A stretch of 29,681 bases of DNA. It comes from Prochloraceae cyanobacterium (GTDB lineage Bacteria; Cyanobacteriota; Cyanobacteriia; Cyanobacteriales; JASJDA01). A program made the position numbers and the translations under genes. Below the pieces are notes generated by a model. That model was not told the DNA's origin. It saw only the letters and a program-made list of their open reading frames with translations, and made no database searches. The stretch spans positions 1 to 29,681 of the forward strand of contig JASJCW010000031.1 in the NCBI GenBank assembly GCA_030065265.1, read 5' to 3'. Within the stretch, counting starts at the first letter, position 1; each line of letters begins with the position of its first letter. Positions 8,487 to 24,040 of the stretch are shown in pieces.

Positions 8487-8557
8487 CAGCCCAAATAAAC
8501 CGGCAAATTTGAGAGTTCGAGCAGTCAGCAGTTAGCAGTCAGCAAGATTCTTACTCG

Positions 8558-10063
8558 CTACTCGCTCCAATTTTTTGCCCTTTCTACGGCTTTTTGCCAA
8601 ATGCGATAACTATCCTCAATGCGATCGCGACCGCCTTTTGCCGGCTCGAAAACGCGATCGATCTTGCGAGTCGAAATTAAAGCACCGTAATCGTCCCAAA
8701 AACCGACAGCTAAACCAGCACCAAAAGCAGCACCTTGCGCGGTAGCATCCAAAATAGCCGGACGCTCGACGGGAATACCTAAAGCATCAGCTTGAAACTG
8801 CATTAAAAAATTATTTTGAGAAGCACCACCATCAACTTTTAAACGAGCCACAGAAAAATCGCTATCTCGGTTAGCCGCTTCAACAACCTCTTTAACCCGA
8901 TAGGCGATCGCTTCTAAAACAGCTCTGACGGCATGTTCTCGCTTCACTCCCCCAGTAAGACCTAAAAAAGCACCTCGAGCGTTAGTATCCCAGTGTGGCG
9001 CGCCCAAACCGCTCAATGCAGGGACAAAATAGACCCCATTCGTATCTTCGACGCTGCTGGCTAAATCTTCCGTTTCTGGCGCGCTGGCAATTATTTTCAA
9101 GCCATCTCGCAACCATTGTATCGATGCACCCGTAGTGAAGATCGCACCTTCTAAAGCGTAATTAGTCGAATCAGGTTGCGTCCAAGCAACGGTAGAGAGC
9201 AGTTTTTGGGACGAGCGAGTTAAATTGAGTCCGGTTTGTACGATTAAAAAAGAACCAGTGCCGTAGGTGCATTTTAACAAGCCCGGGCGATCGCACCCAT
9301 GAGCGAATAAAGCCGACTGCTGGTCGCCAAATATTGCCGTAATCGGAATTTCTGCATCCAATAGTTGGGGATCGGTCTTGCCGAAACTGCCCATACTGTG
9401 TTTGATTTCCGGCATCATCTGGGTGGGAATGGCAAATAAATCCAATAATCGGCGATCCCATTCTAAAGTGGCTAAATTCATTAGCATAGTCCGACTTGCG
9501 TTACTATGGTCGGTGGCATGTACTTGACCGCCAGTCAAATTCCACAAAATCCAACTATCGATCGTCCCAGCAATTACATTATCTAAATCGATCGCCGGTC
9601 TTTCTTGCTTGACCCAATTTAGCAACCAAGTCAGTTTAGTTGCCGAAAAATAAGGATCGAGAATTAATCCCGTAATTTCTTGAATTTCTTTATCTTTGCC
9701 TTTTGCTGCTAAATCGCGACACATTGAAGCAGTACGACGATCTTGCCAGACGATCGCCTTGTGCAAAGGTTCTCCTGTTGTTTTGTCCCATAACAAACAA
9801 GTTTCTCTTTGAACTGTCAAACCGATTGCAGCAATTTCTCGAGCCGAAATCTTGGTATTTTGCAAAACTAATTCGATTACAGTGCGAGTATCTTGCCAAA
9901 TTTCCCGCGCGTCGTGTTCGAGCCAGCCGGGTTGGGGATAATATTGAGTTAATTCTTTGTAAGCTTGGCCGACAATATTGCCGCTGCGATCGAATAAAAT
10001 TGCTCTATTTCCTGTCGTACCTAAATCTATTGCTAGAACGTATTTATAAGTATTGTTTGTCAT
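8558..10063 (-). CDS. glpK: Glycerol kinase
   Basis: N-terminal YVLAIDLGTTGNRAILFD matches the FGGY-kinase / GlpK signature, as do the internal GLTVQRET, ALEGAIFTTGASIQWLRDGL and GGASQNNFLMQFQADALGIPVERP motifs. The ORF-track start at 10111 adds 16 non-conserved residues. The internal ATG at 10061-10063 (MTNNTYKYVLAIDLG) is the likely start. Confidence 0.9.
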   Translation of the reverse strand: MTNNTYKYVLAIDLGTTGNRAILFDRSGNIVGQAYKELTQYYPQPGWLEHDAREIWQDTRTVIELVLQNTKISAREIAAIGLTVQRETCLLWDKTTGEPLHKAIVWQDRRTASMCRDLAAKGKDKEIQEITGLILDPYFSATKLTWLLNWVKQERPAIDLDNVIAGTIDSWILWNLTGGQVHATDHSNASRTMLMNLATLEWDRRLLDLFAIPTQMMPEIKHSMGSFGKTDPQLLDAEIPITAIFGDQQSALFAHGCDRPGLLKCTYGTGSFLIVQTGLNLTRSSQKLLSTVAWTQPDSTNYALEGAIFTTGASIQWLRDGLKIIASAPETEDLASSVEDTNGVYFVPALSGLGAPHWDTNARGAFLGLTGGVKREHAVRAVLEAIAYRVKEVVEAANRDSDFSVARLKVDGGASQNNFLMQFQADALGIPVERPAILDATAQGAAFGAGLAVGFWDDYGALISTRKIDRVFEPAKGGRDRIEDSYRIWQKAVERAKNWSE

Positions 10064-10213
10064 AGTAGGGAACGGGTCAAAATAATAAATTGAACTGCAA
10101 TTATAGAGCAAGTCGCGAGTAAAATTCCGAGGAGAAAATCTTACTTAAATTAATTTAAAATTCAAGATTTTTTTACTCTTTATTCAAAAAATTTTACTCT
10201 CTTGATGCTCTAT

Positions 10214-12721
10214 TTAATCTTCCGATTTTTGAATCGGTTTTAATAATAAAGCTTGACTGTTAGCTAAATTAAAACAACGCAGATCTGCTAAATTATTATT
10301 ATCATTTAGTCCTACAGAAGCAAGATCGACAGTCCATTCTGACATATCCAGTTGCAACCAGTCCCCTAAAGTAATTTCAAAAGGCTCGCCTTCGAGATGG
10401 GCTACCATTGCGATTTGTTCGGTAGGATTTTCTGGATTAGAGCGAATCCCGTAAAAAATCGTGCGATCGCCTTCACTAATTTTATTAAAACGATCTGTTG
10501 CTTTGAGATTCCCATTCAACCAGGAGCGATCGCGACGAAATTGTCGCAATTTAAGATTGAATTCCGTATTGTCAGGATTGAGATCTTCTAAGTAATGGGA
10601 AACATTGCAAACTTCATAGCAATCTTCCATAAACATTTGGGCAAATTTTTTAAATCTTTCTACATTTAGCTTGCGAATGTAACTGATAATTTCAGGAGTA
10701 TCCAGAAATTTCATGAAGAAAAGATCGGTATCGGAAATATCAATGCGATCGTTTTTAATTAAACTGTGAAAAGTTTGAATTACCTCTAAGAGATCGTAAT
10801 TTCTTTCTAATATGGTTTCTTCTAAAAACCTACCAAAAGCCCGCAACTGTTCTAAAGTTTTAAAACCGAGAGATTTGACCCGAGGAAAAACCCATTCTCG
10901 ATCGTAAAATTCCGGGCTAATTTGCCAATCTAAAAAGCCCATTTCTTCGGAAATAACTTTAACACCGTAGCGATCGTCAGTATTGCGAAAAAACATCCAG
11001 GGCGATCTGGTAGTACAATTAATAAAATCCATCGGCAAACCCGGAGAAAAACCGTAAACCCACAAAGTGACGGCTTGATTGTCGTAGGCATGGCGAATTA
11101 CTTCAGTTAAATTTTCCCCCAATCGCCAGTTGATTGGCTTGCTAGGATCTACTTGAGAACCGCGTCTGAGGGTATCGTGATTGCCGCAACCAGTGATCCA
11201 GCGATCGCCCATCTGAATTACTTCGCAGACTCGCCGCCATTTCCGTTCCCAAAAACCAGTCAAAGTGGGGGTATTGTGGGCAAAAATTAGCGGCCCCCAT
11301 TGGTAAGATTCGGGTTTGAGTTCGATTAATTCCCGATAGGTAGATTTTTCTTCCCAACCTTCTTCGGGCCAGGGGCGACCGTCTTCATAAATCGTGAAAA
11401 GCAATCTTTGACAGCCATTTATTTCTTGAACTAAATCGCTCATTGCCAACAAATAGGCATCGTCTTGTTCTACTCTTCCAGATAAAGGATTAAAAAAGCG
11501 GAAATCCTGACCGCCATCGACGCGAATACCATCAGCCCCAGTGTTAATTTTACGACGCTGCAGTTCCAAAAATATCGCCCGCACCGTCGGCAATTGATGG
11601 TTGAGATCTTGCCCGTACATATTCGGGCCTTTAAGATACTGACGGTTAATTAATAATTCGGCTTGATTGTCAGCATGACCGTAAACTAAATCGTAAATGA
11701 TTTGAATCGGGCCCGTAGGAAAATTATGTAAAGTAGCGATAAAATCAATTAGTTCGTCCGGGCGCAGACTTTGTAAAATAGCTGGGTTGGTAGCACTAGA
11801 ACCGAGAATAGGAACGTCGTAGCCCCAATCTTGAGTATTTGGTTTTAATAATTTAATTGGCGATCTGTTGAGGGGAGGAAGTATTCTCGCTTTGCGATCT
11901 GATTCTTTATCAGCAAACAAAAAAAATTCACTTTCTTGCTGGTAATTTTGCCTGTATTCGATCGGCGGTTCGATCGGCAATAACTGTACTGCATCGTAAC
12001 CGACATAACATTCTTCTGCCGGAGTAAGCGGAATATTTTCTCGGATTTTGCGACTGATTTGACGGTAAATTTCCGTTAAACCGGCGATCGTTCCCGATCG
12101 CGAAGCAGTACCGATATGAAGTTGTAAAATAGCAACTGGCGCGCCAACTCGAGGCACTTCTTCATCCCCGTTCGCTCTTGAAGTGCGCCGCAAATATTCC
12201 ATATCTTCCCGATTGGCCTGCAAACTCTCCATATCGTAAAGTTCGGCCGGAGCAAAGATACCGAAAGGTAGAGAATAGGGCATCATATCCCGAATTGTTT
12301 GCAATTGCCCTTTTTGATTGTAGTAGCGCAACCAATAAAAACAACCAGGTCGATCTTTAGTTCCAGCTTGCATCCCTTCGATCGCACCCCAAAAAAATTC
12401 ACCTTGCTGTTTTAAACGCAAACAGTCGCGGCGAAAATGAGTAGTTTGCATCGGCGATCGCCAGTCGATTTCTTCTAAGGGAGTAAAAACTTCTAAATAT
12501 ATATCTCGCGGTCGCATTATTTCCCCAGTTAATTCCGGGGCCCAAAAACCTATTTCAGTCAAACCATTCTGACGGTGGTAGTGCGCACCTAATTTAGTAG
12601 CTAAGGCTTCTGCTCTCTCAAAAACAGTTGCATCGGACTGTTCTATTTCTTTAGCCCAGTCCAATAATTCTTGGGTTGCATCCTCAGCAAGTTTGACAAA
12701 ATCTTTTGTTTCTATAACCAT
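10214..12721 (-). CDS. gghA: GH13-like glycoside hydrolase, candidate glucosylglycerol hydrolase (GghA-like)
   Basis: 835-aa ORF. GYDAVQLLPIEP resembles GH13 region I (GxTHVELLPV). ADGIRVDGGQDF resembles GH13 catalytic region II (DGFRxDAAKH). Its size is close to Synechocystis Slr1670/GghA. It lies directly upstream of glpK on the same strand, as gghA does relative to glpK in Synechocystis. Confidence 0.5.
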   Translation of the reverse strand: MVIETKDFVKLAEDATQELLDWAKEIEQSDATVFERAEALATKLGAHYHRQNGLTEIGFWAPELTGEIMRPRDIYLEVFTPLEEIDWRSPMQTTHFRRDCLRLKQQGEFFWGAIEGMQAGTKDRPGCFYWLRYYNQKGQLQTIRDMMPYSLPFGIFAPAELYDMESLQANREDMEYLRRTSRANGDEEVPRVGAPVAILQLHIGTASRSGTIAGLTEIYRQISRKIRENIPLTPAEECYVGYDAVQLLPIEPPIEYRQNYQQESEFFLFADKESDRKARILPPLNRSPIKLLKPNTQDWGYDVPILGSSATNPAILQSLRPDELIDFIATLHNFPTGPIQIIYDLVYGHADNQAELLINRQYLKGPNMYGQDLNHQLPTVRAIFLELQRRKINTGADGIRVDGGQDFRFFNPLSGRVEQDDAYLLAMSDLVQEINGCQRLLFTIYEDGRPWPEEGWEEKSTYRELIELKPESYQWGPLIFAHNTPTLTGFWERKWRRVCEVIQMGDRWITGCGNHDTLRRGSQVDPSKPINWRLGENLTEVIRHAYDNQAVTLWVYGFSPGLPMDFINCTTRSPWMFFRNTDDRYGVKVISEEMGFLDWQISPEFYDREWVFPRVKSLGFKTLEQLRAFGRFLEETILERNYDLLEVIQTFHSLIKNDRIDISDTDLFFMKFLDTPEIISYIRKLNVERFKKFAQMFMEDCYEVCNVSHYLEDLNPDNTEFNLKLRQFRRDRSWLNGNLKATDRFNKISEGDRTIFYGIRSNPENPTEQIAMVAHLEGEPFEITLGDWLQLDMSEWTVDLASVGLNDNNNLADLRCFNLANSQALLLKPIQKSED

Positions 12722-12847
12722 AATGTTAATACGTTGGAAATATTATTGCTGATTTTTAAACAATACAGCAAAATTAACACTCAATATTTCTTTGGCAAAA
12801 AACCGAACTATGATGGAATTTAGTAAACATTCATAAAATCGTAAATC

Positions 12848-14533
12848 GTGAGAGACTATCAATCAATTAAAAATACAAGCTACGAAGCAATAATTATCGG
12901 TGGAGGGATAAATGGAGCGGGAGTAGCTCGAGATGCTGCTTTAAGAGGATTAAAAACTATTTTAATCGAAAAAAACGATTTTGCTAGTGGTAGTTCTAGT
13001 TGGTCTACTAGATTAGTGCATGGAGGGTTGCGATATCTAGAATATTTTGAATTACCTTTAGTAAGAGAGTCTTTAAAAGAAAGAGAAATTTTATTAAACA
13101 TCGCCCCTCATTTAGTTAAACCTCTTTTATTAACCGTACCAGTTTACGGCGATCGCTCTCGCCCTTATTGGAAAATTTGGGCTGGAATGATTCTGTACGA
13201 TCTTTTTAGCTTTGATAAAACCCTCCCGGGTTATAGAATGCTAAATAAAGCAAAATTTAAGCGGATTTTTCCGACTTTAGATCCTGAAAATTTAAGTGGT
13301 GGAGCGCAATATTACGACGCTCGAGTTGCTCATGCTGAAAGATTGTGTCTTGAAAATATTATTTCAGCTAAAGAAGCCGGTGCAGACGTACTCAATTACG
13401 TCAAAGTAACTCGATTGCACCTTGAAGGGAAGAAAATTACTCATCTTACCTGCAAAGATACCTTGACAGGAGAAGAATTTACAGTTAAAGGCACAGAAGA
13501 TGCAGTGATTGTAAACACTTCAGGCCCTTGGGTAGATGAAGTATGTGGTTCTATTGAAATCGAAGCAACCAAAGCCGACAGTTCCAAGGCGATCGTTCAC
13601 GGTAAAAAAATGGGGCCGACTAAAGGCAGCCATATTGTTGTCGATCCTTTTCCAGGTGCGCCAGAAAGCGGTCTTTACGTTGAAGCTAAATCCGACGGTC
13701 GTCCTTTCTTTATTTTGCCTTGGTTGGGTAAATATTTAATCGGAACTACGGATTTTCCCTATCACAAAGATCTCGAATCGATCAAAGCAGATAACGATGA
13801 AATCGATTATTTATTAACAGAAACAAATAATATTTTACCGACAGCTAATTTATCGCGCCAAGATATTAAATTCACCTATTCTGGAGTGCGTCCTTTACCA
13901 AACGAAGCAGGAAAAAAAGCCGGGAGTATTACTCGCTCTCACATTCTCTTTGACGGAAAAAAAGAAGGGGTATTTAATTTAATTTCTCTAATTGGCGGCA
14001 AACTAACAACCTATCGTCAAGTAGGCGAAGAAATAGTCGATGCGATTTTAAAAAAACAAGGCAAACCAATTTCTAGCTCTAAAACGGCTCTTCAACCTTT
14101 ACCCGGAGCTATTAAAGCCTCTAATCCTCTGATTCAAAAAACTATCGATCTATATCGGGATAAAGTTTCTTTAAACATTATTGCCCATCTCTTTTCTCTT
14201 TACGGAGCTAGAGCTGTCTCAGTTTTAGAATTAACCGAAGAAAATCCTGAATTAGCCGAAACTATTCATCCCGAATTACCAGATATTAAAGCCCAACTCG
14301 TCTATGGAGTCCGAGTTGAATTTGCCCTGAGTTTAGTAGATTTGATTCGCCGTCGCACTGCGATCGCCATGGAGGCTAATTACGGCTTAGATGTACTGAC
14401 AACCTCGATCGAAGTTTTACAAAAATATTGCAATTGGAGCGCAGAACGTTGCGAACTGGCTCGTTCTGAATATATTACTTATATGAAAAACAATTGCATT
14501 CCCGATTTTGAATTAGAGGCAAACTTAATATAG
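12848..14533 (+). CDS. glpD: FAD-dependent glycerol-3-phosphate dehydrogenase
   Basis: YEAIIIGGGINGAGVARDAALRGLKTILIEKNDFASGSSSWSTRLVHGGLRYLE is the classic GlpD N-terminal FAD-binding signature (GGGINGAG...D.A.GTSS.S.KL.HGGLRYLE). 561 aa. Confidence 0.9.
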   Translation: MRDYQSIKNTSYEAIIIGGGINGAGVARDAALRGLKTILIEKNDFASGSSSWSTRLVHGGLRYLEYFELPLVRESLKEREILLNIAPHLVKPLLLTVPVYGDRSRPYWKIWAGMILYDLFSFDKTLPGYRMLNKAKFKRIFPTLDPENLSGGAQYYDARVAHAERLCLENIISAKEAGADVLNYVKVTRLHLEGKKITHLTCKDTLTGEEFTVKGTEDAVIVNTSGPWVDEVCGSIEIEATKADSSKAIVHGKKMGPTKGSHIVVDPFPGAPESGLYVEAKSDGRPFFILPWLGKYLIGTTDFPYHKDLESIKADNDEIDYLLTETNNILPTANLSRQDIKFTYSGVRPLPNEAGKKAGSITRSHILFDGKKEGVFNLISLIGGKLTTYRQVGEEIVDAILKKQGKPISSSKTALQPLPGAIKASNPLIQKTIDLYRDKVSLNIIAHLFSLYGARAVSVLELTEENPELAETIHPELPDIKAQLVYGVRVEFALSLVDLIRRRTAIAMEANYGLDVLTTSIEVLQKYCNWSAERCELARSEYITYMKNNCIPDFELEANLI

Positions 14534-14536
14534 AGA

Positions 14537-16054
14537 TTGAGGATAATGGATAATAATTTTTTTAAGGACTCGTTGGATAAAAAAGTTATCGAACAACGGG
14601 TTAGTGCAATTAGCCAAGCTAAGGTGGGATTTTATAGCATCGGTCTTTATCCGGCCTCTCTTGCTTACAATTCGGCAATGCAAAAAAGCAATAAATCTCT
14701 TCTATTAGCTACCCGGCCGGGAAGATCTCTCCTCGGGGCATTTTCTGAAGAGGAAATTAAAGGAATGGATCCCCGACACCTCGTCAAGATGCGTCGCATG
14801 GCATCCCATAAAGAAAACGGAAAATCCGTACCGAATACTCTAGAATACTTGATCGCAAAGTGCGATTTAATCGTCTTGAGTTCTAATAGTAAATACATCA
14901 AGCAAGATCTCGACCAAGCTTGCAATCTTAGAAAAAAGCTCGGTCGCACTAATGTCGTGCTTTCCTGTCTAGCAGGTTCTTTCAACCACGATGAAGCTAA
15001 TAATGAGTCTTATGTATTGTGCGAAAAATATCCCAATCTGGCCTTTTTCTCTGGATTTCATCGACACGGTTCGTTAAGAGATCCGGTAGATAGTTTTACA
15101 GCTAATTTTTGCCATCCCAATTCTTTAACAGCTTTGATCGGGGCCCACATACTGAATCAACTTTCTCCGAACATTCAAGTTTCTCCTGGAATTCACAATG
15201 TTGAAGCGCAATATTTGAAAGCTGCTAAAAATATGGCATCTATTTTTGCCGGTTTTGGTTATGTTTATCACGAGCAAAATCCAGGGATTCTGCCTACTCT
15301 ATTGACTTTGTTGCTCCATCAATGTTTAGATCAGGCTGCGACCGTTTCTATGTCGCGACAAGATCGCGAAAAGCTTTACACTCAGCAAACCATTGCTTTA
15401 ACGGAGTTAGGTTATGCTATACCGAGAATTGAAGCAGTCTTAAATAAAGGTGGTTTTACCGAAAAAGTTCGCGATCATACTTTTTCTCAATTAACGGCGA
15501 TGGTTGCTGACGTGCGAGGAAGTATGATGCTTCCAGTCACTGGGAAACCTACCAGAAATTTTCAAGCCGGACAAGCTTTAGCCTACGGTATGTCGAAACA
15601 CGGTCGCTGTCCGATCGACGTTAAAGAATTTGAACAGTGGTGTAAAGATGCTGGATTAAATGTCGGATCTTTAGAAGGTTTAAAAGCTTTGAAATACTGG
15701 CCGCAAATCGAAGCAAAATACTCAATTCAAAATCACGATGCTTCAATGGTTAATCTTCTTTATAAGGGATTGTATGGCACTGAAGAAGAAAAAGATTTTG
15801 CTTTTGAAGTGATGACACAAAGTCGAGAATTATCAAATTATTGTCAAGAGTCGGTTCGACATACCCACAGTCGCAAGTATGCAGAAGCCCTTAATCATAT
15901 CGAACAATTAGAAGCACTCGAATTAATTTCAAACGCTATTATTGCCGACAACGCGCGCAAAGCTATTCGCAATAACGATAATCCAATTGAAGAAAGAGAA
16001 TTAAATTCAGATACTCCAGCTTATTTGCGAGCAATTGACTCTATCGAACAATAG
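14537..16054 (+). CDS. Hypothetical protein with a GpsA-like (NAD-dependent G3P dehydrogenase / opine-DH fold) core, degenerate dinucleotide motif, ~120-aa C-terminal extension
   Basis: 505-aa ORF starting 3 nt after the glpD stop. Weak but collinear resemblance to GpsA: KVGFYSIGLYPASLA versus KIAVLGAGSWGTALA (glycines lost), CDLIVLSSNSKYIKQ versus ADLVLFVVPSQAFRE, LSCLAGSF versus VISGPTF, and TGKPTRNFQAGQALAYGMS versus TDNQSRNRRFGMMLGQGMD. Assignment is tentative. Confidence 0.4.
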   Translation: MRIMDNNFFKDSLDKKVIEQRVSAISQAKVGFYSIGLYPASLAYNSAMQKSNKSLLLATRPGRSLLGAFSEEEIKGMDPRHLVKMRRMASHKENGKSVPNTLEYLIAKCDLIVLSSNSKYIKQDLDQACNLRKKLGRTNVVLSCLAGSFNHDEANNESYVLCEKYPNLAFFSGFHRHGSLRDPVDSFTANFCHPNSLTALIGAHILNQLSPNIQVSPGIHNVEAQYLKAAKNMASIFAGFGYVYHEQNPGILPTLLTLLLHQCLDQAATVSMSRQDREKLYTQQTIALTELGYAIPRIEAVLNKGGFTEKVRDHTFSQLTAMVADVRGSMMLPVTGKPTRNFQAGQALAYGMSKHGRCPIDVKEFEQWCKDAGLNVGSLEGLKALKYWPQIEAKYSIQNHDASMVNLLYKGLYGTEEEKDFAFEVMTQSRELSNYCQESVRHTHSRKYAEALNHIEQLEALELISNAIIADNARKAIRNNDNPIEERELNSDTPAYLRAIDSIEQ

Positions 16055-16323: not shown

Positions 16324-17091
16324 TCAAGCATTTTTAATAAAGCGAATAATTTCGCGAACGTTGCCTAAAAATTTACTGTCTTCTGCGAGCTGAGAAATAG
16401 CATTTTTTGCTGCTTCAGATAAGCGTTGATGTTCTCTTTGGTTATCCGCTTTTAATCCTTCTAAATTTGCCCTTAATTTTGCCGTATTTTCGCGAATTTG
16501 TTGCCATTCTCTTTGCTGAATGTTAACTAAGGAACTATCGTTTTTTGGATCTAATTTTTCCGAAATTTTTTGAACGTTATTCTCTAAGAATATCAAGCGA
16601 GATTGCAATTCAATTACATCTTCTCGAGGATATTTGATTTCACGGCGAATTGAAGATATCCTAGCCTCTAGGTACTGATAAAAACTAATCGCAGGACGCA
16701 ATCCAGTTAACAATAAAGCAGCAGCAGAACTAATATAACCGATCGCACTAATTCCGGTAGCTGCTAAAATATAAAGTCCGATCGCCGAAATAAGATGCAA
16801 TGCGATCGCAATTATAATCGACCAACGAGATACCAAAGTAACGTATTCAATTTGTTTGTTATCTACTGTTATTCCTTTTTCTTGCGATGTTTCGCTTTCT
16901 ATTATTACTTGTTTGGCTTCAAAATAGATATTCCAAGGTATAGTTACAATAACTACTAACCACCAAAAACTAGCTATTCCGAAGATCCAATCGATTAAAT
17001 TACCTGCCGGAATGTGAAGCCATTCTAAAATTCCAAATAATAGTAAAACAAGCAAGCCTAATCCTATAGTAAACATTACTGACGCAATCAT
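16324..17091 (-). CDS. Hypothetical membrane protein: 4 predicted TM helices followed by a long coiled-coil C-terminal domain
   Basis: 255-aa ORF. Hydrophobic segments IASVMFTIGLGLLVLLLFGIL, IFGIASFWWLVVIVTIPW, WSIIIAIALHLISAIGLYILAA and IGYISSAAALLLTGL. The C-terminus is rich in heptad-like E/K/Q/L (LQSRLIFLENNVQKISEKL...LRANLEGLKADNQREHQRLSEAAKNAISQLAEDS). Its start lies 5 nt downstream of the MTase stop (operon). Confidence 0.6.
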   Translation of the reverse strand: MIASVMFTIGLGLLVLLLFGILEWLHIPAGNLIDWIFGIASFWWLVVIVTIPWNIYFEAKQVIIESETSQEKGITVDNKQIEYVTLVSRWSIIIAIALHLISAIGLYILAATGISAIGYISSAAALLLTGLRPAISFYQYLEARISSIRREIKYPREDVIELQSRLIFLENNVQKISEKLDPKNDSSLVNIQQREWQQIRENTAKLRANLEGLKADNQREHQRLSEAAKNAISQLAEDSKFLGNVREIIRFIKNA

Positions 17092-17096
17092 ATTTT

Positions 17097-17714
17097 TTAG
17101 TTTGATTTTGTTGCAATTCCTTTGTAATAATATCCCATAATTTTCGGGGCATTTTCTACATAAAATTCTTCGATTATTATGCTTTTAAATTGGTTTTCAA
17201 GAATTTTTTTGATATTACGATTTAAATGACAACCATCCCCGATCGCTTTTTGAATTGGATTAAGTCTATTTTGCCAAACTTGAATTTTCGCTTCGTTACT
17301 CAATCCGTGTTCGATAAAATAAAATTTGCCGTTAGGTTTTAAGACGCGATAAATTTCGGCTATAGCTCGATCTATATTGGCAATACTACAAAGCGTCCAA
17401 GTGCTAACTATACTATCAAAATTATTGTCTGGAAAAGGTAAATCTTCACTGCTTAATAAGCGGTTATCGACGGTAATTTTAGATTCTTGAATTCTTTTTC
17501 GTGCCAATCTATTCATCCCCGGATTGGGATCGATAGTTGTTACTTTGGTGATATTTTCTGGATAATAAGCTAAATTTAATCCAGTACCAAAACCAATTTC
17601 TAAGACTTCTCCAGATACTTCCGATAATAGTTGTTTGCGATATTTACTAGAGATCGGATCTGATAAACTCAAATCCAATAAATAAGGTAAAATGAGACGA
17701 GAATAAAGGCTCAT
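17097..17714 (-). CDS. Class I SAM-dependent methyltransferase
   Basis: 205-aa ORF with motif I VLEIGFGTGLNLAYY, post-I acidic D (TIDPN), motif II/III (FDSIVSTWTLCS, LKPNGKFYFIEH). Substrate unknown. Confidence 0.8.
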   Translation of the reverse strand: MSLYSRLILPYLLDLSLSDPISSKYRKQLLSEVSGEVLEIGFGTGLNLAYYPENITKVTTIDPNPGMNRLARKRIQESKITVDNRLLSSEDLPFPDNNFDSIVSTWTLCSIANIDRAIAEIYRVLKPNGKFYFIEHGLSNEAKIQVWQNRLNPIQKAIGDGCHLNRNIKKILENQFKSIIIEEFYVENAPKIMGYYYKGIATKSN

Positions 17715-18112: not shown

Positions 18113-18709
18113 TTAATATGATTCTACCAATTGTTGCAAACCGGATATTTTAATTCCTTCGCCGATCGCTTGCACGTTCCAACCTTCATTTTCGCGATAA
18201 ATTTCAGCCATAATCATTCCCGTACTACCTTGATATTGTTGACCGGATAGATTGTAACGAGCGATTTCTCGATTGTTAGCAGTATCGACTAAGCGAACGA
18301 AAGCATTATTAACTTGACTAAAATCTTGCTGGCGATCGAACGCTTGAAAAATACTGACAGCAAAAACTAACTTATGAATATTTTCGGGTATTTTAGGCAA
18401 ATCGACCAGAATTTGTTCGTCGTCTCCTTCCCCTTCACCTGTGAGATTATCGCCTAAATGGGTAATTCCTCCAGAAACGTGAGCGAGATTGTTATAGTAA
18501 ATAACATTCATATTGTTATCTAATTTGCCCTGAGCATTTAAACACAAAACCGAAGCATCTAAATCTAGATTTGAACTGGCTTTAAAAATGCCAAGAAAAC
18601 CCCCAGAAGATTGGGCTATATCCCAACCTAAACCACACATAATTGTAGTTAAACCTGGGGACTCTTTTTTTAAAGAAATACGCTGTCCTTTTTGTAAATT
18701 AATAGACAT
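18113..18709 (-). CDS. TerD-family stress protein (divergent paralog, TerZ/TerX-like)
   Basis: 198 aa. MSINLQKGQRISL..GLGWD...GDNLTGEGEGDDEQI...VQAIGEG pattern of the TerD/CABP1 fold, with ~35-40% identity to the three downstream paralogs. Confidence 0.85.
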   Translation of the reverse strand: MSINLQKGQRISLKKESPGLTTIMCGLGWDIAQSSGGFLGIFKASSNLDLDASVLCLNAQGKLDNNMNVIYYNNLAHVSGGITHLGDNLTGEGEGDDEQILVDLPKIPENIHKLVFAVSIFQAFDRQQDFSQVNNAFVRLVDTANNREIARYNLSGQQYQGSTGMIMAEIYRENEGWNVQAIGEGIKISGLQQLVESY

Positions 18710-18721
18710 TGTTTCAATCTT

Positions 18722-19300
18722 TTAACTGTTGTAGCGGTTGAGGAGAGCTTGTAAGCCGCCCTGATAACCCGATCCTACAGCATTGACGCGCCACTCGCCA
18801 TCCTTGCGATAAAATTCGGCCATGATAATCGCAGTTTCGATCGAAAAGTCTTCAGCTAAGTCGTAACGTAAGACCTCTTCTTGAGTTTCGACATTAACCA
18901 AACGCACGTAAGCATTACTAACTTGGCCGAAATTTTGTTTGCGTTTTTCCGCTTCGTAAATAGTTACGCTGACGACCATTTTATTGACATCCGGGGGGAT
19001 TTTACGGAAATCTGCAATTAAAGCTTCGTCATCTCCTTCTCCTTCACCGGTTCGATTATCTCCCATCAATTGCACCGATTTATCTGGATCGGGACTGGTA
19101 AGATTGTTATAAAAAATAAAGTGTTTTTCTGTAATTAACTTCTGATCGGCACCAACAAGAAAAACAGATAAGTCTAAGTCAAATTCATTACCCGTATCCG
19201 TAGCATTGATATCCCATCCTAACCCGATTAAAGCCGCACTCAGCCCTGGTGCTACCTTATCTAACGATACTCTTTGACCTTTTTGTAGTGAAATTGCCAT
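18722..19300 (-). CDS. terD: TerD-family tellurium-resistance/Ca-binding stress protein
   Basis: 192 aa. It aligns end-to-end with E. coli TerD (MAISLQKGQRVSLDK..IGLGWD..FDLDLSVFL..FIFYNNL..GDNRTGEGEGDDE..VTIYEAE..QNFGQVSNAYVRLVN..RYDL.EDFS.ETA.IMAEFYR..GEWR..AVGSGYQGGL). Confidence 0.9.
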   Translation of the reverse strand: MAISLQKGQRVSLDKVAPGLSAALIGLGWDINATDTGNEFDLDLSVFLVGADQKLITEKHFIFYNNLTSPDPDKSVQLMGDNRTGEGEGDDEALIADFRKIPPDVNKMVVSVTIYEAEKRKQNFGQVSNAYVRLVNVETQEEVLRYDLAEDFSIETAIIMAEFYRKDGEWRVNAVGSGYQGGLQALLNRYNS

Positions 19301-19338
19301 ATTATAATTTTAGTTTTTGCGAGGATATTACAATTTTT

Positions 19339-19914
19339 TTATTGATAGCGGTTTAAAAGAGCCTGTAAGCCACCTTCATAGCCAGATCCTACAGCACCGA
19401 CGCGCCAGTCGCCATCCTTGCGATAAAATTCGGCCATAATAATCGCAGTTTCGATCGAAAAGTCTTCAGCTAAGTCGTAACGCAAAACCTCATCTTTAGT
19501 TTCGACATTAACCAAACGCACGTAAGCATTATTAACTTGACCGAAATTCTGTCCCCGTTTCTCTGCTTCGTGAATGGTAACGGTGACAGCCATTTTAGCA
19601 ACTTCTGGGGGGATTTTACGAAAATCTGCAATCAAAGCTTCGTCATCTCCTGCACCTTCACCGGTTCGATTATCTCCCATCAATTGCACCGATTTATCTG
19701 GATCGGGACTGTTGAGATTATTGTAGAAAACAAAGTGTTTGTCTGAAATTAATTTTTCATTGTCTCCTAATAAAAAAACCGATACGTCGAGATCGAAATC
19801 AGTACCCGTATCTGTGGGGTTGACATCCCATCCCAAACCGATCATTCCTGCATTAATTCCCGGTGCTACTTTCTCTAGGGCGATTTTTTGTCCTTTTTGG
19901 AGTGAAATAGCCAT
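19339..19914 (-). CDS. terD: TerD-family tellurium-resistance/Ca-binding stress protein
   Basis: 191 aa. ~85% identical to the 18722..19300 and 20138..20713 products. It has the GDNRTGEGAGDDE motif. Confidence 0.9.
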   Translation of the reverse strand: MAISLQKGQKIALEKVAPGINAGMIGLGWDVNPTDTGTDFDLDVSVFLLGDNEKLISDKHFVFYNNLNSPDPDKSVQLMGDNRTGEGAGDDEALIADFRKIPPEVAKMAVTVTIHEAEKRGQNFGQVNNAYVRLVNVETKDEVLRYDLAEDFSIETAIIMAEFYRKDGDWRVGAVGSGYEGGLQALLNRYQ

Positions 19915-20137
19915 ATATTTCTACCTAATCGTAAATTGCAAACTAATTTTATTATTATCGATTTGCTCGAGCGATCGATGTAGGGATAATACCCATTGGG
20001 AGCGTCGGGAGAGGTTAGTCGTTAGTGGGGAGTGTTGAAAGCGTCTGCAGAAAAAAATCAGCTGATTTTACCAATTTACAATTAATCAACCAATTTCAAA
20101 CTAAACAACTACCTACTACCTACTCCCTAACTTCGCT

Positions 20138-20713
20138 TTAATTGTAGCGAGACAAAAGTGCTTCTAGACCCCCTTGATAGCCAGATCCTACTGCGTTAAC
20201 CCGCCATTCGTTATCTTTGCGATAAAATTCGGCCATGACAATTGCAGTTTCGATCGAAAAGTCTTCATCTAATTCGTAGCGCAAGACTTCATCTTTAGTT
20301 TCGACGTTAACTAAGCGGACGTAAGCATTATTAACTTGACCGAAATTTTGACCGCGTTTGTCTGCTTCGTGAATGGTAACTGTAACGGTTATTTTATTAA
20401 CATCTGCGGGTACTTTACGAAAATCAACGATCGCCGCTTCGTCATCCCCACTACCTTCACCTGTTTTATTGTCCCCCATTAATTGAATCGATTTATCTGG
20501 ATCGGGACTGGTCAGGTTATTGTAAAAAATAAAGTGTTTTTGTGAAACTAATTTATCGTTAGCACCCAAAAGAAACAAAGACACGTCGAGATCGAAATCA
20601 GTACCCGTATCGGTAGGGTTAACATCCCATCCCAAACCAACAAGTGCTGCGGATATACCGGGTGCAGCTTTTTCTAAAGATATTTTTTGCCCTTTTTGGA
20701 GTGAAATTGTCAT
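20138..20713 (-). CDS. terD: TerD-family tellurium-resistance/Ca-binding stress protein
   Basis: 191 aa. It has the GDNKTGEGSGDDE motif and is near-identical in organisation to the two preceding paralogs. Confidence 0.9.
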   Translation of the reverse strand: MTISLQKGQKISLEKAAPGISAALVGLGWDVNPTDTGTDFDLDVSLFLLGANDKLVSQKHFIFYNNLTSPDPDKSIQLMGDNKTGEGSGDDEAAIVDFRKVPADVNKITVTVTIHEADKRGQNFGQVNNAYVRLVNVETKDEVLRYELDEDFSIETAIVMAEFYRKDNEWRVNAVGSGYQGGLEALLSRYN

Positions 20714-20733
20714 TATTTTTCCTACCTAATTTT

Positions 20734-21777
20734 ATGTTATTTAATCGAATTGTCGAAAAACTAGGAGATGCAGTCGAGCGACATAGCATAACGGCTAATA
20801 ATCTTAACCCCGAAATTACTGGAGTAGCCTCAGTAGATAGCGCAAAAGCCGGAACTATCAGCTATGTTGAAGGGGGCAAATTTGCCGCAATGGTAAGTCA
20901 AACTGCTGCTAGTGCTTTGATTTTGCCTTTAGATGAATCGCTGATAATCGCAGCCACAGAGCGAGGTCTTGCTTGGGTTGCAACCAAACAACCTCGGTTA
21001 TTATTTGCTAAGGCGATCGCCTTGTTTTATCAACCGTTTCAACCAGGCCCTGGTATTCATCCTACAGCAGTAATTGACCCTTCGGTAGTTCTCGGTAAAG
21101 ATGTTTCGATCGCATCCCACGTTGTCATTCAACCGGGAGTAACTATCGGCGATCGCGCTTGCATTCATCCTAACGTTGTCATTTATCCCGATGTTGAAAT
21201 CGGCGATCGCACGATCCTGCACGCTAACTGTACGATCCACGAACGGGCTAAAATTGGGGCCGATTGCGTGATTCATAGCGGTGCGGTTATTGGTGCGGAA
21301 GGATTTGGTTTTGTTCCCACTCCACAAGGTATTTTTAAAATGGAACAATCGGGCCGTACTGTTTTAGAGGATCGCGTAGAAGTTGGTTGCAATAGCGCGA
21401 TCGACCGCCCTGCAGTTGGTGAAACTATTATTAAACGCAATACCAAATTAGACAATATGGTGCATATCGCTCACGGTTGCGAAGTTGGCGAAAATTGCTT
21501 TATGGCGGCTCAAGTCGGCTTAGCTGGAGGCGTTAAAGTAGGTAGGGGGGTTATGCTTGGCGGACAGGTTGGTGTCGCTAATAACGCTAAAATCGGCGAT
21601 GGTGCGATCGCTACGGCTCAAACTGGTATTCCCAGCGACATTGCACCCGGAGCAATTGTTTCGAGTTCTCCGGCCGTTCCTAACAAGTTATATCTTAAAG
21701 TTTCGGCTATTTACAAGCGTCTGCCGGAAATGTATAGAATTTTGAAAAAGTTGCAAAAAAAATTAGATTTAGATTGA
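20734..21777 (+). CDS. lpxD: UDP-3-O-(3-hydroxyacyl)glucosamine N-acyltransferase
   Basis: The N-terminal motif ITGVASVDSAKAGTISYVEGGKFAAMVSQTAASALI matches the LpxD N-domain. It is followed by ~10 hexapeptide (left-handed beta-helix) repeats (IHPTAVIDPSVVLGKDVSIASHVVIQPGVTIGDRACIHPNVVIYPDVEIGDRTIL...). The ORF-track start at 20644 overlaps TerD on the other strand and adds a non-conserved hydrophobic extension. ATG 20734 (MLFNRIVEKLG) gives a ~347-aa LpxD-sized protein. Confidence 0.8.
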   Translation: MLFNRIVEKLGDAVERHSITANNLNPEITGVASVDSAKAGTISYVEGGKFAAMVSQTAASALILPLDESLIIAATERGLAWVATKQPRLLFAKAIALFYQPFQPGPGIHPTAVIDPSVVLGKDVSIASHVVIQPGVTIGDRACIHPNVVIYPDVEIGDRTILHANCTIHERAKIGADCVIHSGAVIGAEGFGFVPTPQGIFKMEQSGRTVLEDRVEVGCNSAIDRPAVGETIIKRNTKLDNMVHIAHGCEVGENCFMAAQVGLAGGVKVGRGVMLGGQVGVANNAKIGDGAIATAQTGIPSDIAPGAIVSSSPAVPNKLYLKVSAIYKRLPEMYRILKKLQKKLDLD

Positions 21778-22741: not shown

Positions 22742-24040
22742 ATGGGGTTATTTGACAGAATTCGCGGCGAATTTGTTGATGTTATTGAATGGTTAGATTC
22801 AACTAATGATACGATTGTTTACCGCTTCGAGCGTTATAAAAACGAGATAAAAATGGGAGCAAAATTAACAGTGCGTCCGGGGCAAATGGCTGTATTTGTT
22901 AAAGAGGGTCAAGTTGCCGATGTTTTCTCGCCAGGAATGTATCAACTTTCGACCAGAAACTTACCGATTTTAACTACTTTAATGTCCTGGTCTCATGCCT
23001 TCAACTCGCCATTTAAAGCAGAAGTTTACTTTTTTAGTACCAAAGTTTTTACTAACCTTAAATGGGGAACATCTAAACCAATTACTCTGCGCGATCGCGA
23101 ATTAGGGCCGGTTCGGATCAGAGCTTATGGAAACTACAGTATTAAAGTCGAATCTCCAACCTTATTATTACAAGAATTAGTTAGCACAGATGGGTTATTT
23201 CAAGTAGATGAAGTTAGCGATCATCTCCGTAATATTATCGTTAGTTCCTTTGCTAAATGGCTAGGTAGTTCCCAAATTGCCGTCTTAGATTTAGCCGCTC
23301 ATTATGGCGATTTGGGGGATAAAATTCAAGCCGCAATCAAACCGGAAATGAATCAGGTTGGCATCGAATTAGATCGTTTATTAATTGAAAATATTTCTTT
23401 ACCTTCAGCGGTAGAAGAAGCTTTGGACAAACGTGCTTCGATGGGATTGTTAGGGAATATGCAACAATATACCCAGTTTCAAACTGCTAACGCGATCGAG
23501 CGATCGGCTGAAAACCCCAATAGTAGCAATCCCGGTTTAGATTTTGGCATGGGTATGATGATGGCTCAGCAAATGTCTTCTGCAATGCAGCAACCACAAA
23601 ATCAAGTCCCGCGATCGAATTCCGCTCCAGTTGCTCCCCCTCCTTTAACTCCTCAATGGTATATTGTTGAAAACGGTCAACAAATAGGGCCTTTAGATTT
23701 TCATCAGCTATCCCAAAGAAGGTTAATTTCTCAAACCTTGGTATGGCGTAATGGTATGAGCGAGTGGCTTCCGGCCGCTCGAGTAGGGGAATTATCATCT
23801 TTATTGACACCGCCAACACCACCGACACCACCGACACCACCAACCCCTCCAATATCAGCACCAACATCTTCTTTAGGTAAAGCAGAGTGGTATATTTTTC
23901 GGAGCGGTCAAGCTACGGGGCCGTTCACCAAACAACAATTAAAAGAACAAGGAATATCCGGGAGAACTAACGTCCGTAAAGAAGGTGACGAAGGATGGAC
24001 TAGAGCCAGAGATATCTCCGAATTAAGTTCTATTATTTGA
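22742..24040 (+). CDS. SPFH/band-7 superfamily protein of the YdjI/COG4260 type with two C-terminal DUF4339 (GYF-like) domains separated by a (PT)n linker
   Basis: N-terminal MGLFDRIRGEFVDVIEWLDSTNDTIVYRFERYKNEIKMGAKLTVRPGQMAVFVKEGQVADVFSPGMYQLSTRNLPILTTL is highly similar to the B. subtilis YdjI family as I recall it. The C-terminus has two repeats, QWYIVENGQQIGPLDFHQL......LVWRNGMSEWLPAARVGEL and EWYIFRSGQATGPFTKQQL...NVRKEGDEGWTRARDISEL (DUF4339/GYF-like, W-Y-x-x-x-G-x-x-x-GP). These flank LTPPTPPTPPTPPTPP. Confidence 0.8.
   Translation: MGLFDRIRGEFVDVIEWLDSTNDTIVYRFERYKNEIKMGAKLTVRPGQMAVFVKEGQVADVFSPGMYQLSTRNLPILTTLMSWSHAFNSPFKAEVYFFSTKVFTNLKWGTSKPITLRDRELGPVRIRAYGNYSIKVESPTLLLQELVSTDGLFQVDEVSDHLRNIIVSSFAKWLGSSQIAVLDLAAHYGDLGDKIQAAIKPEMNQVGIELDRLLIENISLPSAVEEALDKRASMGLLGNMQQYTQFQTANAIERSAENPNSSNPGLDFGMGMMMAQQMSSAMQQPQNQVPRSNSAPVAPPPLTPQWYIVENGQQIGPLDFHQLSQRRLISQTLVWRNGMSEWLPAARVGELSSLLTPPTPPTPPTPPTPPISAPTSSLGKAEWYIFRSGQATGPFTKQQLKEQGISGRTNVRKEGDEGWTRARDISELSSII

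What the first reader, a model, noticed from the sequence alone, without database searches (positions are those of the whole stretch)
18113..20713. Four-gene tandem TerD array with near-identical nucleotide blocks (concerted evolution or recent amplification)
Four consecutive TerD-family genes sit on the minus strand. Copies 2-4 share long identical DNA stretches and ~85% protein identity. Copy 1 is an older, diverged paralog. Tandem identical units make this locus prone to recombination or copy-number variation. TerD proteins are Ca2+-binding stress proteins whose cyanobacterial role is unknown. The amplification suggests dosage selection.
Basis: seen in the sequence. Interest (0 to 1): 0.5.

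Follow-up and report, generated by a model that had tools for sequence, protein, structure and literature searches.

The report
Old four-gene TerD stress-protein array
Four neighbouring TerD calcium-binding stress-protein genes in a cyanobacterium are old, separately conserved duplicates that swap short DNA patches, not a recent amplification, so the locus is an ordinary gene-family expansion.

Summary
The four minus-strand TerD genes are real and sit at the stated coordinates. Each is a full-length PF02342 domain. The "near-identical" description is overstated. T2, T3 and T4 are 78.5-81.7% identical in protein and 77-83% in DNA, with third-codon-position identity of 55-68% and dS of 0.64-1.2. 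The longest identical run is 57 nt. T1 is a distinct, ancient "B-type" paralog (44-46% identity).

Related Prochloraceae contigs keep the same lpxD | TerD array | methyltransferase | membrane-protein layout. Each window copy groups with its positional ortholog (bootstrap 100/99/70%) and never with its neighbours. The duplications therefore predate species whose flanking DNA is only about 80-85% identical. All copies are under purifying selection (dN/dS 0.07-0.16).

Short-tract gene conversion is real but patchy. About 220 nt of T2 and T3 group by genome with 98% bootstrap. A 13-59 nt T4-like patch in T3 differs between 99.9%-identical strains.

An [A]n-B TerD layout is common in cyanobacteria: A-B in 22 loci, A-A-B in 11, and up to A-A-A-A-B. 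Classical ter and yce loci also carry tandem TerD paralogs.

Verdict: a stable, expanded member of a known kind of array. Recent amplification is refuted and concerted evolution is only partly supported. Function in cyanobacteria remains inferred, not tested.

The parts
18113..18709 (-). T1: B-type TerD paralog (198 aa), last gene of the array. It carries an 8-residue insertion relative to T2-T4 and keeps the GDNLTGEGEGDDE motif.
   Evidence: ORF. PF02342 E=2.8e-71. 44-46% aa identity to T2-T4. PDB 3ibz E=1.2e-51 and 2kxt E=6.8e-44. Positional orthologs: L085_4 97%, L086_5 84%. B-type relatives at 60-72% identity sit last in arrays of many cyanobacteria.
18722..19300 (-). T2: A-type TerD paralog (192 aa), third in transcription order.
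   Evidence: Orthologs: L085_3 100% aa, L086_4/L087_4 88%. Ortholog group bootstrap 70% on protein and 100% on whole-gene nucleotides.
19339..19914 (-). T3: A-type TerD paralog (191 aa), second in transcription order.
   Evidence: PDB 3ibz E=1.3e-56 and 2kxt E=1.9e-56. Orthologs: L085_2 97%, L086_2/L087_2/L088_3 91%. Protein bootstrap 99%.
20138..20713 (-). T4: A-type TerD paralog (191 aa), first in transcription order. Its start lies 20 nt from the divergent lpxD start.
   Evidence: Orthologs: L085_1 94%, L086_1/L087_1 93%. Bootstrap 100%.
19655..19711 (-). T3 side of the longest identical block (57 nt) shared with T2 (19041-19097). It is the core of an inferred T2/T3 gene-conversion tract and covers part of the Ca2+-motif region.
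   Evidence: identical runs; 26 consecutive matching polymorphic sites, p=0.0012; orthologs in L086/L088 differ at many synonymous sites in this block.
18795..18917 (-). T2 side of the second T2/T3 high-identity region (identical runs of 34, 44 and 29 nt; T3 partner 19409-19531).
   Evidence: sliding identity 0.90-0.94. T2+T3 of window+L085 group at 98% bootstrap for nt 196-290 plus 384-506.
19507..19519 (-). Polymorphic micro-tract in T3 (gene nt 396-408; maximal tract 19490-19548). The window and L085 carry G,T,G,T, which is the T2 state. Strains L001-L004 carry C,C,A,C, which is the T4 state.
   Evidence: Four of only 21 mismatches in 18,420 nt between the window and L001 fall here. Chance that four random substitutions all take the T4 base is about 1.9e-5.
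19915..19997 (-). Conserved noncoding block directly upstream of T3. It is a probable promoter/operator and 5' UTR of a T3-T2-T1 transcription unit (inferred).
   Evidence: alignment conserved in window/L085/L086/L087/L088 while the rest of the spacer is unalignable. The 20-mer at 19975-19994 is exact in all 8 related loci and unique in the window. No convincing RNA structure.
19998..20137 (-). Variable part of the T4-T3 spacer. It holds an imperfect long hairpin and a short A/T hairpin with a T-run, and differs from L085 by a 33-nt length change. It may terminate T4 transcription (inferred, weak).
   Evidence: MFE -52 kcal/mol, z -1.88; not significant.
20734..21777 (+). lpxD (UDP-3-O-acylglucosamine N-acyltransferase), the divergent neighbour of the array. 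It serves as a conserved synteny anchor.
   Evidence: Pfam LpxD and Hexapep. An lpxD homolog lies next to the TerD genes in 23 of 89 loci.
16324..17714 (-). Downstream co-oriented genes: a class I SAM methyltransferase (17097-17714) and a 255-aa membrane/coiled-coil protein with no family (16324-17091). They are syntenic with the array within this clade.
   Evidence: Synteny. Methyltransferase homolog in 11 loci and the 255-aa protein in 7.

Best explanation
The locus is a chromosomal, vertically inherited array of four TerD-domain genes in a Prochloraceae cyanobacterium. It is an expanded version (A-A-A-B) of a TerD 'A-type + B-type' pair that is widespread in cyanobacteria.

The three A-type copies (T4, T3, T2) arose by tandem duplication in an ancestor of this clade. 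That happened before the split from species whose flanking DNA is now about 80-85% identical. Since then they have been kept as distinct genes under purifying selection, each with its own conserved residues.

On top of this divergent history, occasional short-tract homologous recombination (gene conversion) between neighbouring copies copies patches of roughly 13 to 120 nt. It is seeded in the most conserved segments, such as the Ca2+-binding motif region and the C-terminal half. They leave the 5' third of each gene copy-specific.

Shown here: gene content, divergence, orthology, selection, mosaic phylogeny and the strain polymorphism.

Inferred: the proteins are Ca2+-binding beta-sandwich stress proteins like Klebsiella TerD. 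The distinct paralogs act together or are subfunctionalised rather than supplying dosage alone. T4 and T3-T2-T1 are separate transcription units.
For: Family: four full-length PF02342 hits. Solved TerD structures 3ibz and 2kxt match at E about 1e-56. The motif GDNxTGEGxGDDE and the DLD motif are present in all four copies (sequences).

Age: NJ tree with 200 bootstraps gives positional ortholog groups at 100/99/70% and window-paralog monophyly at 0%. Paralog dS is 0.64/0.86/1.2, against ortholog dS of 0.08-0.35 to L085 and 0.55-0.91 to L086. Flanking DNA identity is about 94-96% to L085 and about 80-85% to L086.

Selection: dN/dS is 0.12-0.16 between paralogs and 0.07-0.15 between orthologs. 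There are 15 copy-specific fixed residues and 120 of 191 invariant positions.

Conversion: permutation p=0.0012 for T2/T3. Quartet sites for T2/T3 are 16 by-genome against 29 orthology. They split 2:19 in nt 1-190 and 14:10 in the rest (Fisher p=0.0014). The ratios are 6:37 for T4/T3 and 8:43 for T4/T2. Region trees give 91-100% orthology in nt 1-195, and 98% T2+T3 by-genome grouping in nt 196-290 plus 384-506. A strain-level T4-like patch occurs in T3.

Generality: layouts are A-B in 22 loci, A-A-B in 11, A-A-A-B in 2 and A-A-A-A-B in 2. The Pleurocapsales A1/A2 pairs are also positional orthologs.

Stability: the window plus assemblies L001-L004 (99-99.9% identical) and L085 all carry four copies.
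Against: Paralog dS for T2/T3 (0.64) is no larger than ortholog dS to L086 (0.63-0.91). Conversion and/or shared codon bias therefore blur the dating.

Region B of the mosaic test was chosen after looking at the data.

All sequences are metagenome assemblies, so strain mixtures could contribute to patchy differences. However, the patch alleles each recur in independent assemblies.

Trees are distance-based NJ on short genes.

No functional data exist for cyanobacterial TerD. I found no relevant paper. Ca2+ binding, hetero-oligomerisation and the operon structure are untested. The spacer hairpin is not statistically distinctive.
Confidence: 0.8

Rival explanations
1. Recent tandem amplification kept by dosage selection. 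Under this view the three similar copies are young duplicates that have not yet diverged.
For: A-type copy number differs among related species, 3 versus 4, and among cyanobacteria generally, 1-4.
Against: Positional orthologs occur in species with about 80-85% flanking identity. dS is 0.64-1.2 and third-position identity 55-68%. Spacers are not duplicated. There are 15 copy-specific conserved residues. Six related assemblies show no copy-number polymorphism.
Confidence: 0.03
2. Full concerted evolution: frequent gene conversion keeps the A-type copies homogenised, so apparent orthology is unreliable and the duplication could be very old.
For: Mosaic signal for T2/T3. A conversion-like run in L086 T4/T3 (p=0.0028). 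A segregating micro-tract. In several other lineages the A copies cluster by genome: L016 at 86%, L020 at 91%, L022 at 92%.
Against: Whole-gene trees recover positional orthology. The 5' 195 nt show 91-100% orthology support and a 2:19 by-genome to orthology site ratio. T4 shows little exchange, 6:37 and 8:43. Paralogs remain about 20% diverged.
Confidence: 0.07
3. No gene conversion at all. The identical blocks reflect only strong purifying selection and codon bias on the most conserved parts of the protein, such as the Ca2+-binding motif.
For: The 57-nt block encodes the conserved PDPDKSVQLMGDNRTGEG segment, which includes the start of the Ca2+ motif. Conserved regions are more similar in every comparison. 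Overall dN/dS is low.
Against: Within the block, synonymous sites are identical between T2 and T3 of window/L085. The T2 and T3 orthologs of L086/L088 differ there at many synonymous sites while encoding nearly the same peptide. The permutation test uses only polymorphic sites (p=0.0012). By-genome grouping reaches 98% bootstrap. The four clustered strain differences exactly match a paralog (p about 2e-5).
Confidence: 0.08
4. Assembly artefact: the array or its patches result from mis-assembly of paralogous reads in a metagenome bin.
For: All data are metagenome-assembled contigs. Differences between assemblies are clustered in several places.
Against: The same four-gene layout appears in five assemblies of the population, in a JGI contig (L085), and with one extra copy in two NCBI genomes. 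Paralogs at about 80% identity do not collapse in assembly. Both T3 alleles recur in independent assemblies: window+L085 versus L001-L004.
Confidence: 0.02

Closest known systems
Proteobacterial ter operon (terZABCDE(F)), e.g. on IncHI2-type and Pseudomonas plasmids
   Same: It has several TerD-domain paralogs in one locus, TerZ, TerA, TerD and TerE (annotated example L090). These form a closer pair (TerD/TerE, 67% aa) plus more distant members (TerZ, 42-45%). That mirrors T2-T4 (79-82%) plus T1 (44-46%). T3 is 55-57% identical to Pseudomonas TerD. The Ca2+-binding TerD fold of Klebsiella TerD (2kxt) matches at E=1.9e-56.
   Different: No TerB, TerC or two-domain TerA gene occurs among the window ORFs scanned. 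The window locus is chromosomal and syntenic with lpxD rather than plasmid- or island-borne. Tellurite, phage and colicin phenotypes are untested.
Bacillus yceCDEFGH-type locus (three tandem TerD genes + TerC + YceG + TelA-like)
   Same: It has three consecutive TerD-family genes in one orientation (annotated example L089). YceD/YceE-like proteins are 66% identical and the YceC-like protein is 41-44%. T2-T4 are 59-61% identical to the YceE-like protein.
   Different: The window array is followed by a SAM methyltransferase and an uncharacterised membrane/coiled-coil protein, not by TerC/YceG/TelA. It has three close paralogs rather than two.
Cyanobacterial [A]n-B TerD module (this survey; not found described in the searchable literature)
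   Same: The window layout A-A-A-B is the same module seen as A-B (22 loci), A-A-B (11 loci) and A-A-A-A-B (L086/L087). The B-type gene is last. The divergent lpxD neighbour is shared with the Prochloraceae, Geminocystis, Cyanobacterium stanieri and Gomphosphaeria loci.
   Different: It has more A-type copies than most. Only L085 (same layout), L011 (A-A-A with B further away), L008 (A-A-B-A-B) and L086/L087 (A-A-A-A-B) reach three or more A-type copies.
Lineage-specific TerD expansions in Deinococcus and Streptomyces
   Same: The same family expands repeatedly. The TerDEXZ/CABP expansion in Deinococcus and the Ca2+-homeostasis role of a Streptomyces terD-domain gene are summarised in PMC8123226.
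   Different: From my own knowledge, those paralogs are largely dispersed and more diverged. Here they are tandem, with detectable inter-copy conversion.

Membership tests
TerD family (Pfam PF02342) | Full-length TerD domain match above the curated threshold | tested here: met
   All four score 239-259 bits against a cutoff of 25.3 and cover profile 1-187/187.
TerD family (Pfam PF02342) | Sequence relationship to solved TerD structures | tested here: met
   T3 matches 3ibz at E=1.3e-56 and 2kxt at E=1.9e-56. T1 matches 3ibz at E=1.2e-51.
TerD family (Pfam PF02342) | Conserved acidic Ca2+-binding motif GDN(R/L)TGEGxGDDE. The motif is recalled from Pan et al. 2011, which is cited in PMC8123226. 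| tested here: met
   T1 GDNLTGEGEGDDE, T2 GDNRTGEGEGDDE, T3 GDNRTGEGAGDDE, T4 GDNKTGEGSGDDE. Actual Ca2+ binding cannot be tested with these tools.
Classical ter operon (terZABCDE) | Adjacent TerB and TerC genes, which are required with TerD/TerE for tellurite resistance (PMC8115787, PMC8123226) | tested here: not met
   Pfam/NCBIfam scans of 21 of the window's 24 ORFs of at least 100 aa found no TerB or TerC. The 3 left out lie within larger ORFs on the opposite strand. The contrast is L090.
Bacillus yceCDEFGH-type locus | TerD genes followed by TerC (YceF), YceG and a TelA-like toxic anion resistance protein | tested here: not met
   The downstream genes are a Methyltransf_11 protein and a protein with no family match. 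The contrast is L089.
Recent tandem amplification | Near-identical repeat units including spacers, dS near 0, and paralogs monophyletic within the genome | tested here: not met
   nt identity is 77-83% and dS 0.64-1.2. Spacers are unrelated. Window-paralog monophyly is 0%.
Concerted evolution by gene conversion | Paralogs within a genome more similar than orthologs between genomes, over the gene or over segments of it | tested here: inconclusive
   Not met for whole genes. Met for T2/T3 over nt 196-290 plus 384-506 (98% bootstrap) and for micro-tracts. Concerted evolution is therefore partial and patchy only.
Known anti-phage defence systems (PADLOC-DB 2.0) | Match of TerD or neighbouring genes to a defence-system model | tested here: not met
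   No hit for any of the four TerD proteins. Neighbours give only weak or generic hits.

The most novel reading that the evidence does not exclude
The array could be a site of ongoing intra-array micro-conversion that shuffles a small set of paralog-derived patches between copies. The two T3 alleles, one equal to the T2 state and one to the T4 state, would be an example. Such shuffling would create segregating mosaic TerD alleles in natural populations. This allelic diversity might be selected, for example in a phage- or toxin-related conflict role like the phage-inhibition phenotype of plasmid ter operons, rather than being a neutral by-product of tandem homology.
Probability: 0.05. Interest if true: 0.5.

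Novelty: new member of a known kind. Interest (0 to 1): 0.2.

Why it matters
The result corrects a tempting misreading. Similar tandem genes with identical patches are not necessarily a recent amplification. Here the copies are old and individually conserved, and only patches are homogenised.

It documents that cyanobacteria widely carry an A-type/B-type TerD module without TerB or TerC. The A-type copy has expanded independently in several lineages. It also gives copy-specific residues and a conserved upstream element as starting points for experiments.

TerD function remains poorly understood in any organism. A set of natural 1- to 4-copy arrays could help separate dosage from subfunctionalisation. 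For genome biology as a whole this is incremental.

Tried and rejected
- **Rfam scan of the whole window:** no family matched.
- **RNA structure in the T4-T3 and T1-methyltransferase spacers:** z-scores were -1.9 and -1.4, not distinctive. The consensus fold of the conserved block upstream of T3 was weak (-8.3 kcal/mol, one compensatory pair), so I read it as a DNA-level promoter/operator.
- **Terminator scan:** no terminator-like site lies inside the array. Promoter-like matches were not enriched over shuffles (30 versus 23.1 ± 4.8).
- **PADLOC:** no defence-system match for the TerD proteins.
- **NCBIfam:** no named equivalog for the TerD proteins.
- **Search for degraded TerD remnants in the spacers or elsewhere in the window:** none found.
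- **Literature searches for cyanobacterial TerD function:** nothing relevant. The Anantharaman et al. 2012 Ter review could not be opened.
- **T4 patch in L002-L004 (gene nt 303-318):** I considered whether it has a donor within the array. No paralog in this genome matches it, so I left it as possible inter-strain recombination.
- **NtcA-type GTA-N8-TAC site in the conserved block:** the spacing is 7, not 8, so I rejected this by eye.
Full report
**Observation**

| Gene | Coordinates | Length |
|---|---|---|
| T1 | 18113-18709 | 198 aa |
| T2 | 18722-19300 | 192 aa |
| T3 | 19339-19914 | 191 aa |
| T4 | 20138-20713 | 191 aa |

- Each ORF is a complete TerD domain (PF02342, E 2.8e-71 to 2.6e-77).
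- T3 matches the solved TerD structures 3ibz and 2kxt at E about 1e-56. T1 matches 3ibz at 1e-51.
- All four keep the acidic GDNxTGEGxGDDE motif.
- No further TerD fragments exist in the window.

**How similar are the copies?**

| Pair | Protein identity | Coding DNA identity | Third codon position |
|---|---|---|---|
| T2/T3 | 81.7% | 83.1% | 68% |
| T3/T4 | 81.2% | 80.3% | 62% |
| T2/T4 | 78.5% | 76.8% | 55.5% |

- T1 is 44-46% identical in protein and about 55% in DNA to the others.
- The longest perfectly identical run is 57 nt between T2 and T3. The other runs are 20-44 nt.
- The best long repeat is 300 nt at 87% identity.
- The spacers (12, 38 and 223 nt) are not repeated.
- "Near-identical blocks" and "~85% protein identity" are therefore overstated.

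**Source and relatives**

- Sources that hold these proteins label them as from a Prochloraceae cyanobacterium MAG, and one of them sits on a contig of exactly 29,681 nt.
- Exact-protein look-ups found four other assemblies of the same population (L001-L004). They are 99-99.9% identical over 5-18 kb and have the same four-gene layout.
- L085 has flanks 94-96% identical and also carries four copies.
- L086, L087 and L088 have flanks about 80-85% identical. They keep the synteny lpxD | TerD array | methyltransferase | 255-aa membrane protein.
- L086 and L087 carry five TerD genes plus an acetyltransferase.

**Age of the duplications**

- Every window copy is closest to the gene at the same position in other species, not to its neighbours:
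  - T4: 93-94% aa identity.
  - T3: 91-97%.
  - T2: 88-100%.
  - T1: 84-97%.
- An NJ tree of 49 A-type sequences with 200 bootstraps gives positional ortholog groups at 100%, 99% and 70%. Monophyly of the window paralogs gets 0%.
- Nei-Gojobori dS between paralogs is 0.64 (T2/T3), 0.86 (T3/T4) and 1.2 (T2/T4).
- Ortholog dS is 0.08-0.35 to L085 and 0.55-0.91 to L086.
- dN/dS is 0.12-0.16 for paralogs and 0.07-0.15 for orthologs.
- Fifteen residues are fixed within each positional group but differ between groups. 120 of 191 positions are invariant.
- The copies are therefore old, individually conserved genes. A recent amplification is refuted.

**Gene conversion is nevertheless real, in patches**

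Four lines of evidence support it.

- **(i) Permutation test.** A GENECONV-style permutation on polymorphic sites finds an unusually long matching run between T2 and T3 (26 sites, alignment nt 203-257, p=0.0012). A comparable run occurs between T4 and T3 orthologs in L086 (p=0.0028).
- **(ii) Synonymous sites in the 57-nt block.** T2 and T3 of window/L085 are identical there, including at synonymous sites. Their orthologs in L086/L088 differ at many synonymous sites.
- **(iii) Quartet site patterns.**

| Pair | Region | By-genome sites | Orthology sites |
|---|---|---|---|
| T2/T3 | whole gene | 16 | 29 |
| T2/T3 | nt 1-190 | 2 | 19 |
| T2/T3 | rest of gene | 14 | 10 |
| T4/T3 | whole gene | 6 | 37 |
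| T4/T2 | whole gene | 8 | 43 |

  - The two T2/T3 regions differ at Fisher p=0.0014.
  - Region-specific NJ bootstraps give 91-100% orthology support for nt 1-195.
  - They give 98% support for grouping T2+T3 of window+L085 over nt 196-290 plus 384-506.
  - Caveat: that region was chosen after inspection.
  - This places a T2/T3 exchange in the common ancestor of the window and L085 lineages.
- **(iv) A patch that differs between strains.**
  - Four of the 21 mismatches between the window and L001 over 18,420 nt lie within 13 nt of T3 (window 19519, 19516, 19513, 19507).
  - The L001-L004 allele equals the T4 sequence. The window/L085 allele equals the T2 sequence.
  - Chance that four random substitutions all take the T4 base is about 2e-5.
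  - T3 and T4 are identical for 29 nt on one side of the patch and 17 nt on the other. These flanks are plausible recombination substrates.
  - Similarly, four of nine T2 differences between the window and L085 cluster at nt 426-459, and all match T3.
  - Each allele recurs in independent assemblies, which argues against assembly artefacts.

**Wider pattern**

- In 80 loci from one-genome-per-species cyanobacterial (and a few other) genomes, TerD genes are typically tandem.
- I classed copies as A-type (T2-T4-like) or B-type (T1-like). The most common layouts are:

| Layout | Loci |
|---|---|
| A-B | 22 |
| A alone | 14 |
| A-A-B | 11 |
| A-A-A-B | 2 (window, L085) |
| A-A-A-A-B | 2 (L086, L087) |
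| A-A-B-A-B | 1 (Paraprochloron, L008) |

- In Pleurocapsales the two A copies are again positional orthologs across genera (85-93% between orthologs against about 76% between paralogs).
- In other lineages the A copies pair by genome: L016 at 86%, L020 at 91%, L022 at 92%.
- A-type duplication has therefore recurred, and duplicates tend to persist.
- lpxD is the divergent neighbour in 23 loci. This marks a vertically inherited chromosomal position.

**Comparison with known systems**

- Tandem TerD paralogy is a hallmark of known ter loci.
  - A Pseudomonas plasmid carries TerZ-TerA-TerB-TerC-TerD-TerE.
  - A Bacillus thuringiensis plasmid carries three TerD genes followed by TerC, YceG and a TelA-like protein.
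- TerD/TerE are 67% identical and YceD/YceE-like proteins 66%. The outlier paralogs are 41-46% identical. This is the same "close set plus distant member" design as T2-T4 plus T1.
- The window locus differs in three ways:
  - TerB, TerC and TelA are absent nearby.
  - It has three close paralogs rather than two.
  - Its downstream partners are a SAM methyltransferase and an unclassified membrane/coiled-coil protein.
- No PADLOC defence model matches the TerD proteins.
- Background on TerD comes from PMC8123226 and PMC8115787:
  - Ca2+ binding by Klebsiella TerD.
  - A Ca2+-homeostasis role in Streptomyces.
  - Expansion of the family in Deinococcus.
  - The requirement for terBCDE in tellurite resistance.
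- I found no paper on cyanobacterial TerD function.

**Likely organisation and mechanism**

- T4 starts 20 nt from the divergent lpxD start at 20734.
- The 223-nt T4-T3 spacer has two parts:
  - A variable, hairpin-prone half, which is not statistically distinctive.
  - An about 80-nt block directly upstream of T3 that is conserved across species whose spacer is otherwise unalignable. It includes a 20-mer that is exact in all eight related loci and unique in the window.
- I infer that T4 is one transcription unit and T3-T2-T1 another.
- I also infer that the proteins are Ca2+-binding TerD-fold stress proteins and that the distinct A and B paralogs work together or are subfunctionalised.
- The main argument against pure dosage is the copy-specific conservation and the unconverted 5' third of each gene.

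**Verdict**

This is a real but ordinary locus: an expanded, stable member of a known kind of tandem TerD array. Detectable short-tract conversion explains the identical patches. The recent-amplification and dosage reading is not supported. Concerted evolution is supported only in part.

Noticed in passing
window 19915-19997 (minus strand): An about 80-nt noncoding block directly upstream of T3 is conserved across species whose remaining spacer is unalignable. The 20-mer GGGTATTATCCCTACATCGA (19975-19994) is exact in all 8 related loci and unique in the window. No convincing RNA fold was found, so it is probably a promoter/operator.
   Followed up: partly
window 20714-20733: Only 20 nt separate the divergent start codons of T4 (20713) and lpxD (20734), so each promoter must overlap the other gene. 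An lpxD homolog lies next to the TerD genes in 23 of 89 loci.
   Followed up: partly
window 18113-20713 versus L085 5162-7729: Divergence between the window and the related contig L085 is uneven across the array. T4 has 50 differences (8.7%), T3 has 22, T1 has 18 and T2 has 9 (1.6%). Flanking DNA differs by 4.4-6.2%. This suggests a recombination mosaic between strains.
   Followed up: partly
L002-L004 T4 gene nt 303-318 (window 20396-20411): Five clustered substitutions in T4 of three 99%-identical assemblies have no matching donor among the paralogs of this genome. They may be an import from another strain.
   Followed up: partly
L086 6621-7193 and 8460-8990; L087 2935-3510 and 4738-5307: Sister species carry a fifth, more diverged A-type TerD between the T3 and T2 orthologs. 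They also have a GNAT acetyltransferase inserted between T1 and the methyltransferase.
   Followed up: partly
window 16324-17714 (minus strand): A class I SAM methyltransferase and a 255-aa protein with about four predicted (by eye) transmembrane segments plus a coiled coil (no Pfam family) follow the array. They are syntenic with it in the close relatives. A methyltransferase homolog also lies within the locus in two further Prochloraceae/Prochloron MAGs (L011, L014).
   Followed up: partly
window 5137-14533: A glucosylglycerol salt-acclimation cluster. It comprises a GG-phosphate phosphatase (Salt_tol_Pase, 5137-6447), a GT20 synthase (7002-8486), glycerol kinase (8558-10111, minus), a GHL5 hydrolase (10214-12721, minus) and glycerol-3-phosphate dehydrogenase (12848-14533). 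A 505-aa ORF with no family follows at 14537-16054.
   Followed up: no
window 1865-5137: A 1090-aa protein combines a weak, below-cutoff MFS-like match with HEAT repeats and a C-terminal cyclic-nucleotide-binding domain. This is an unusual fusion and lies next to the glucosylglycerol genes.
   Followed up: no
window 22742-24040: An SPFH/Band-7 protein with two GYF_2 domains and a PPT-repeat linker.
   Followed up: no
L005 and L006 (Prochloraceae MO_167.B51): In this related species the module is split. A solo A-type TerD stays next to lpxD on one contig, and an A-B pair lies on another contig.
   Followed up: no
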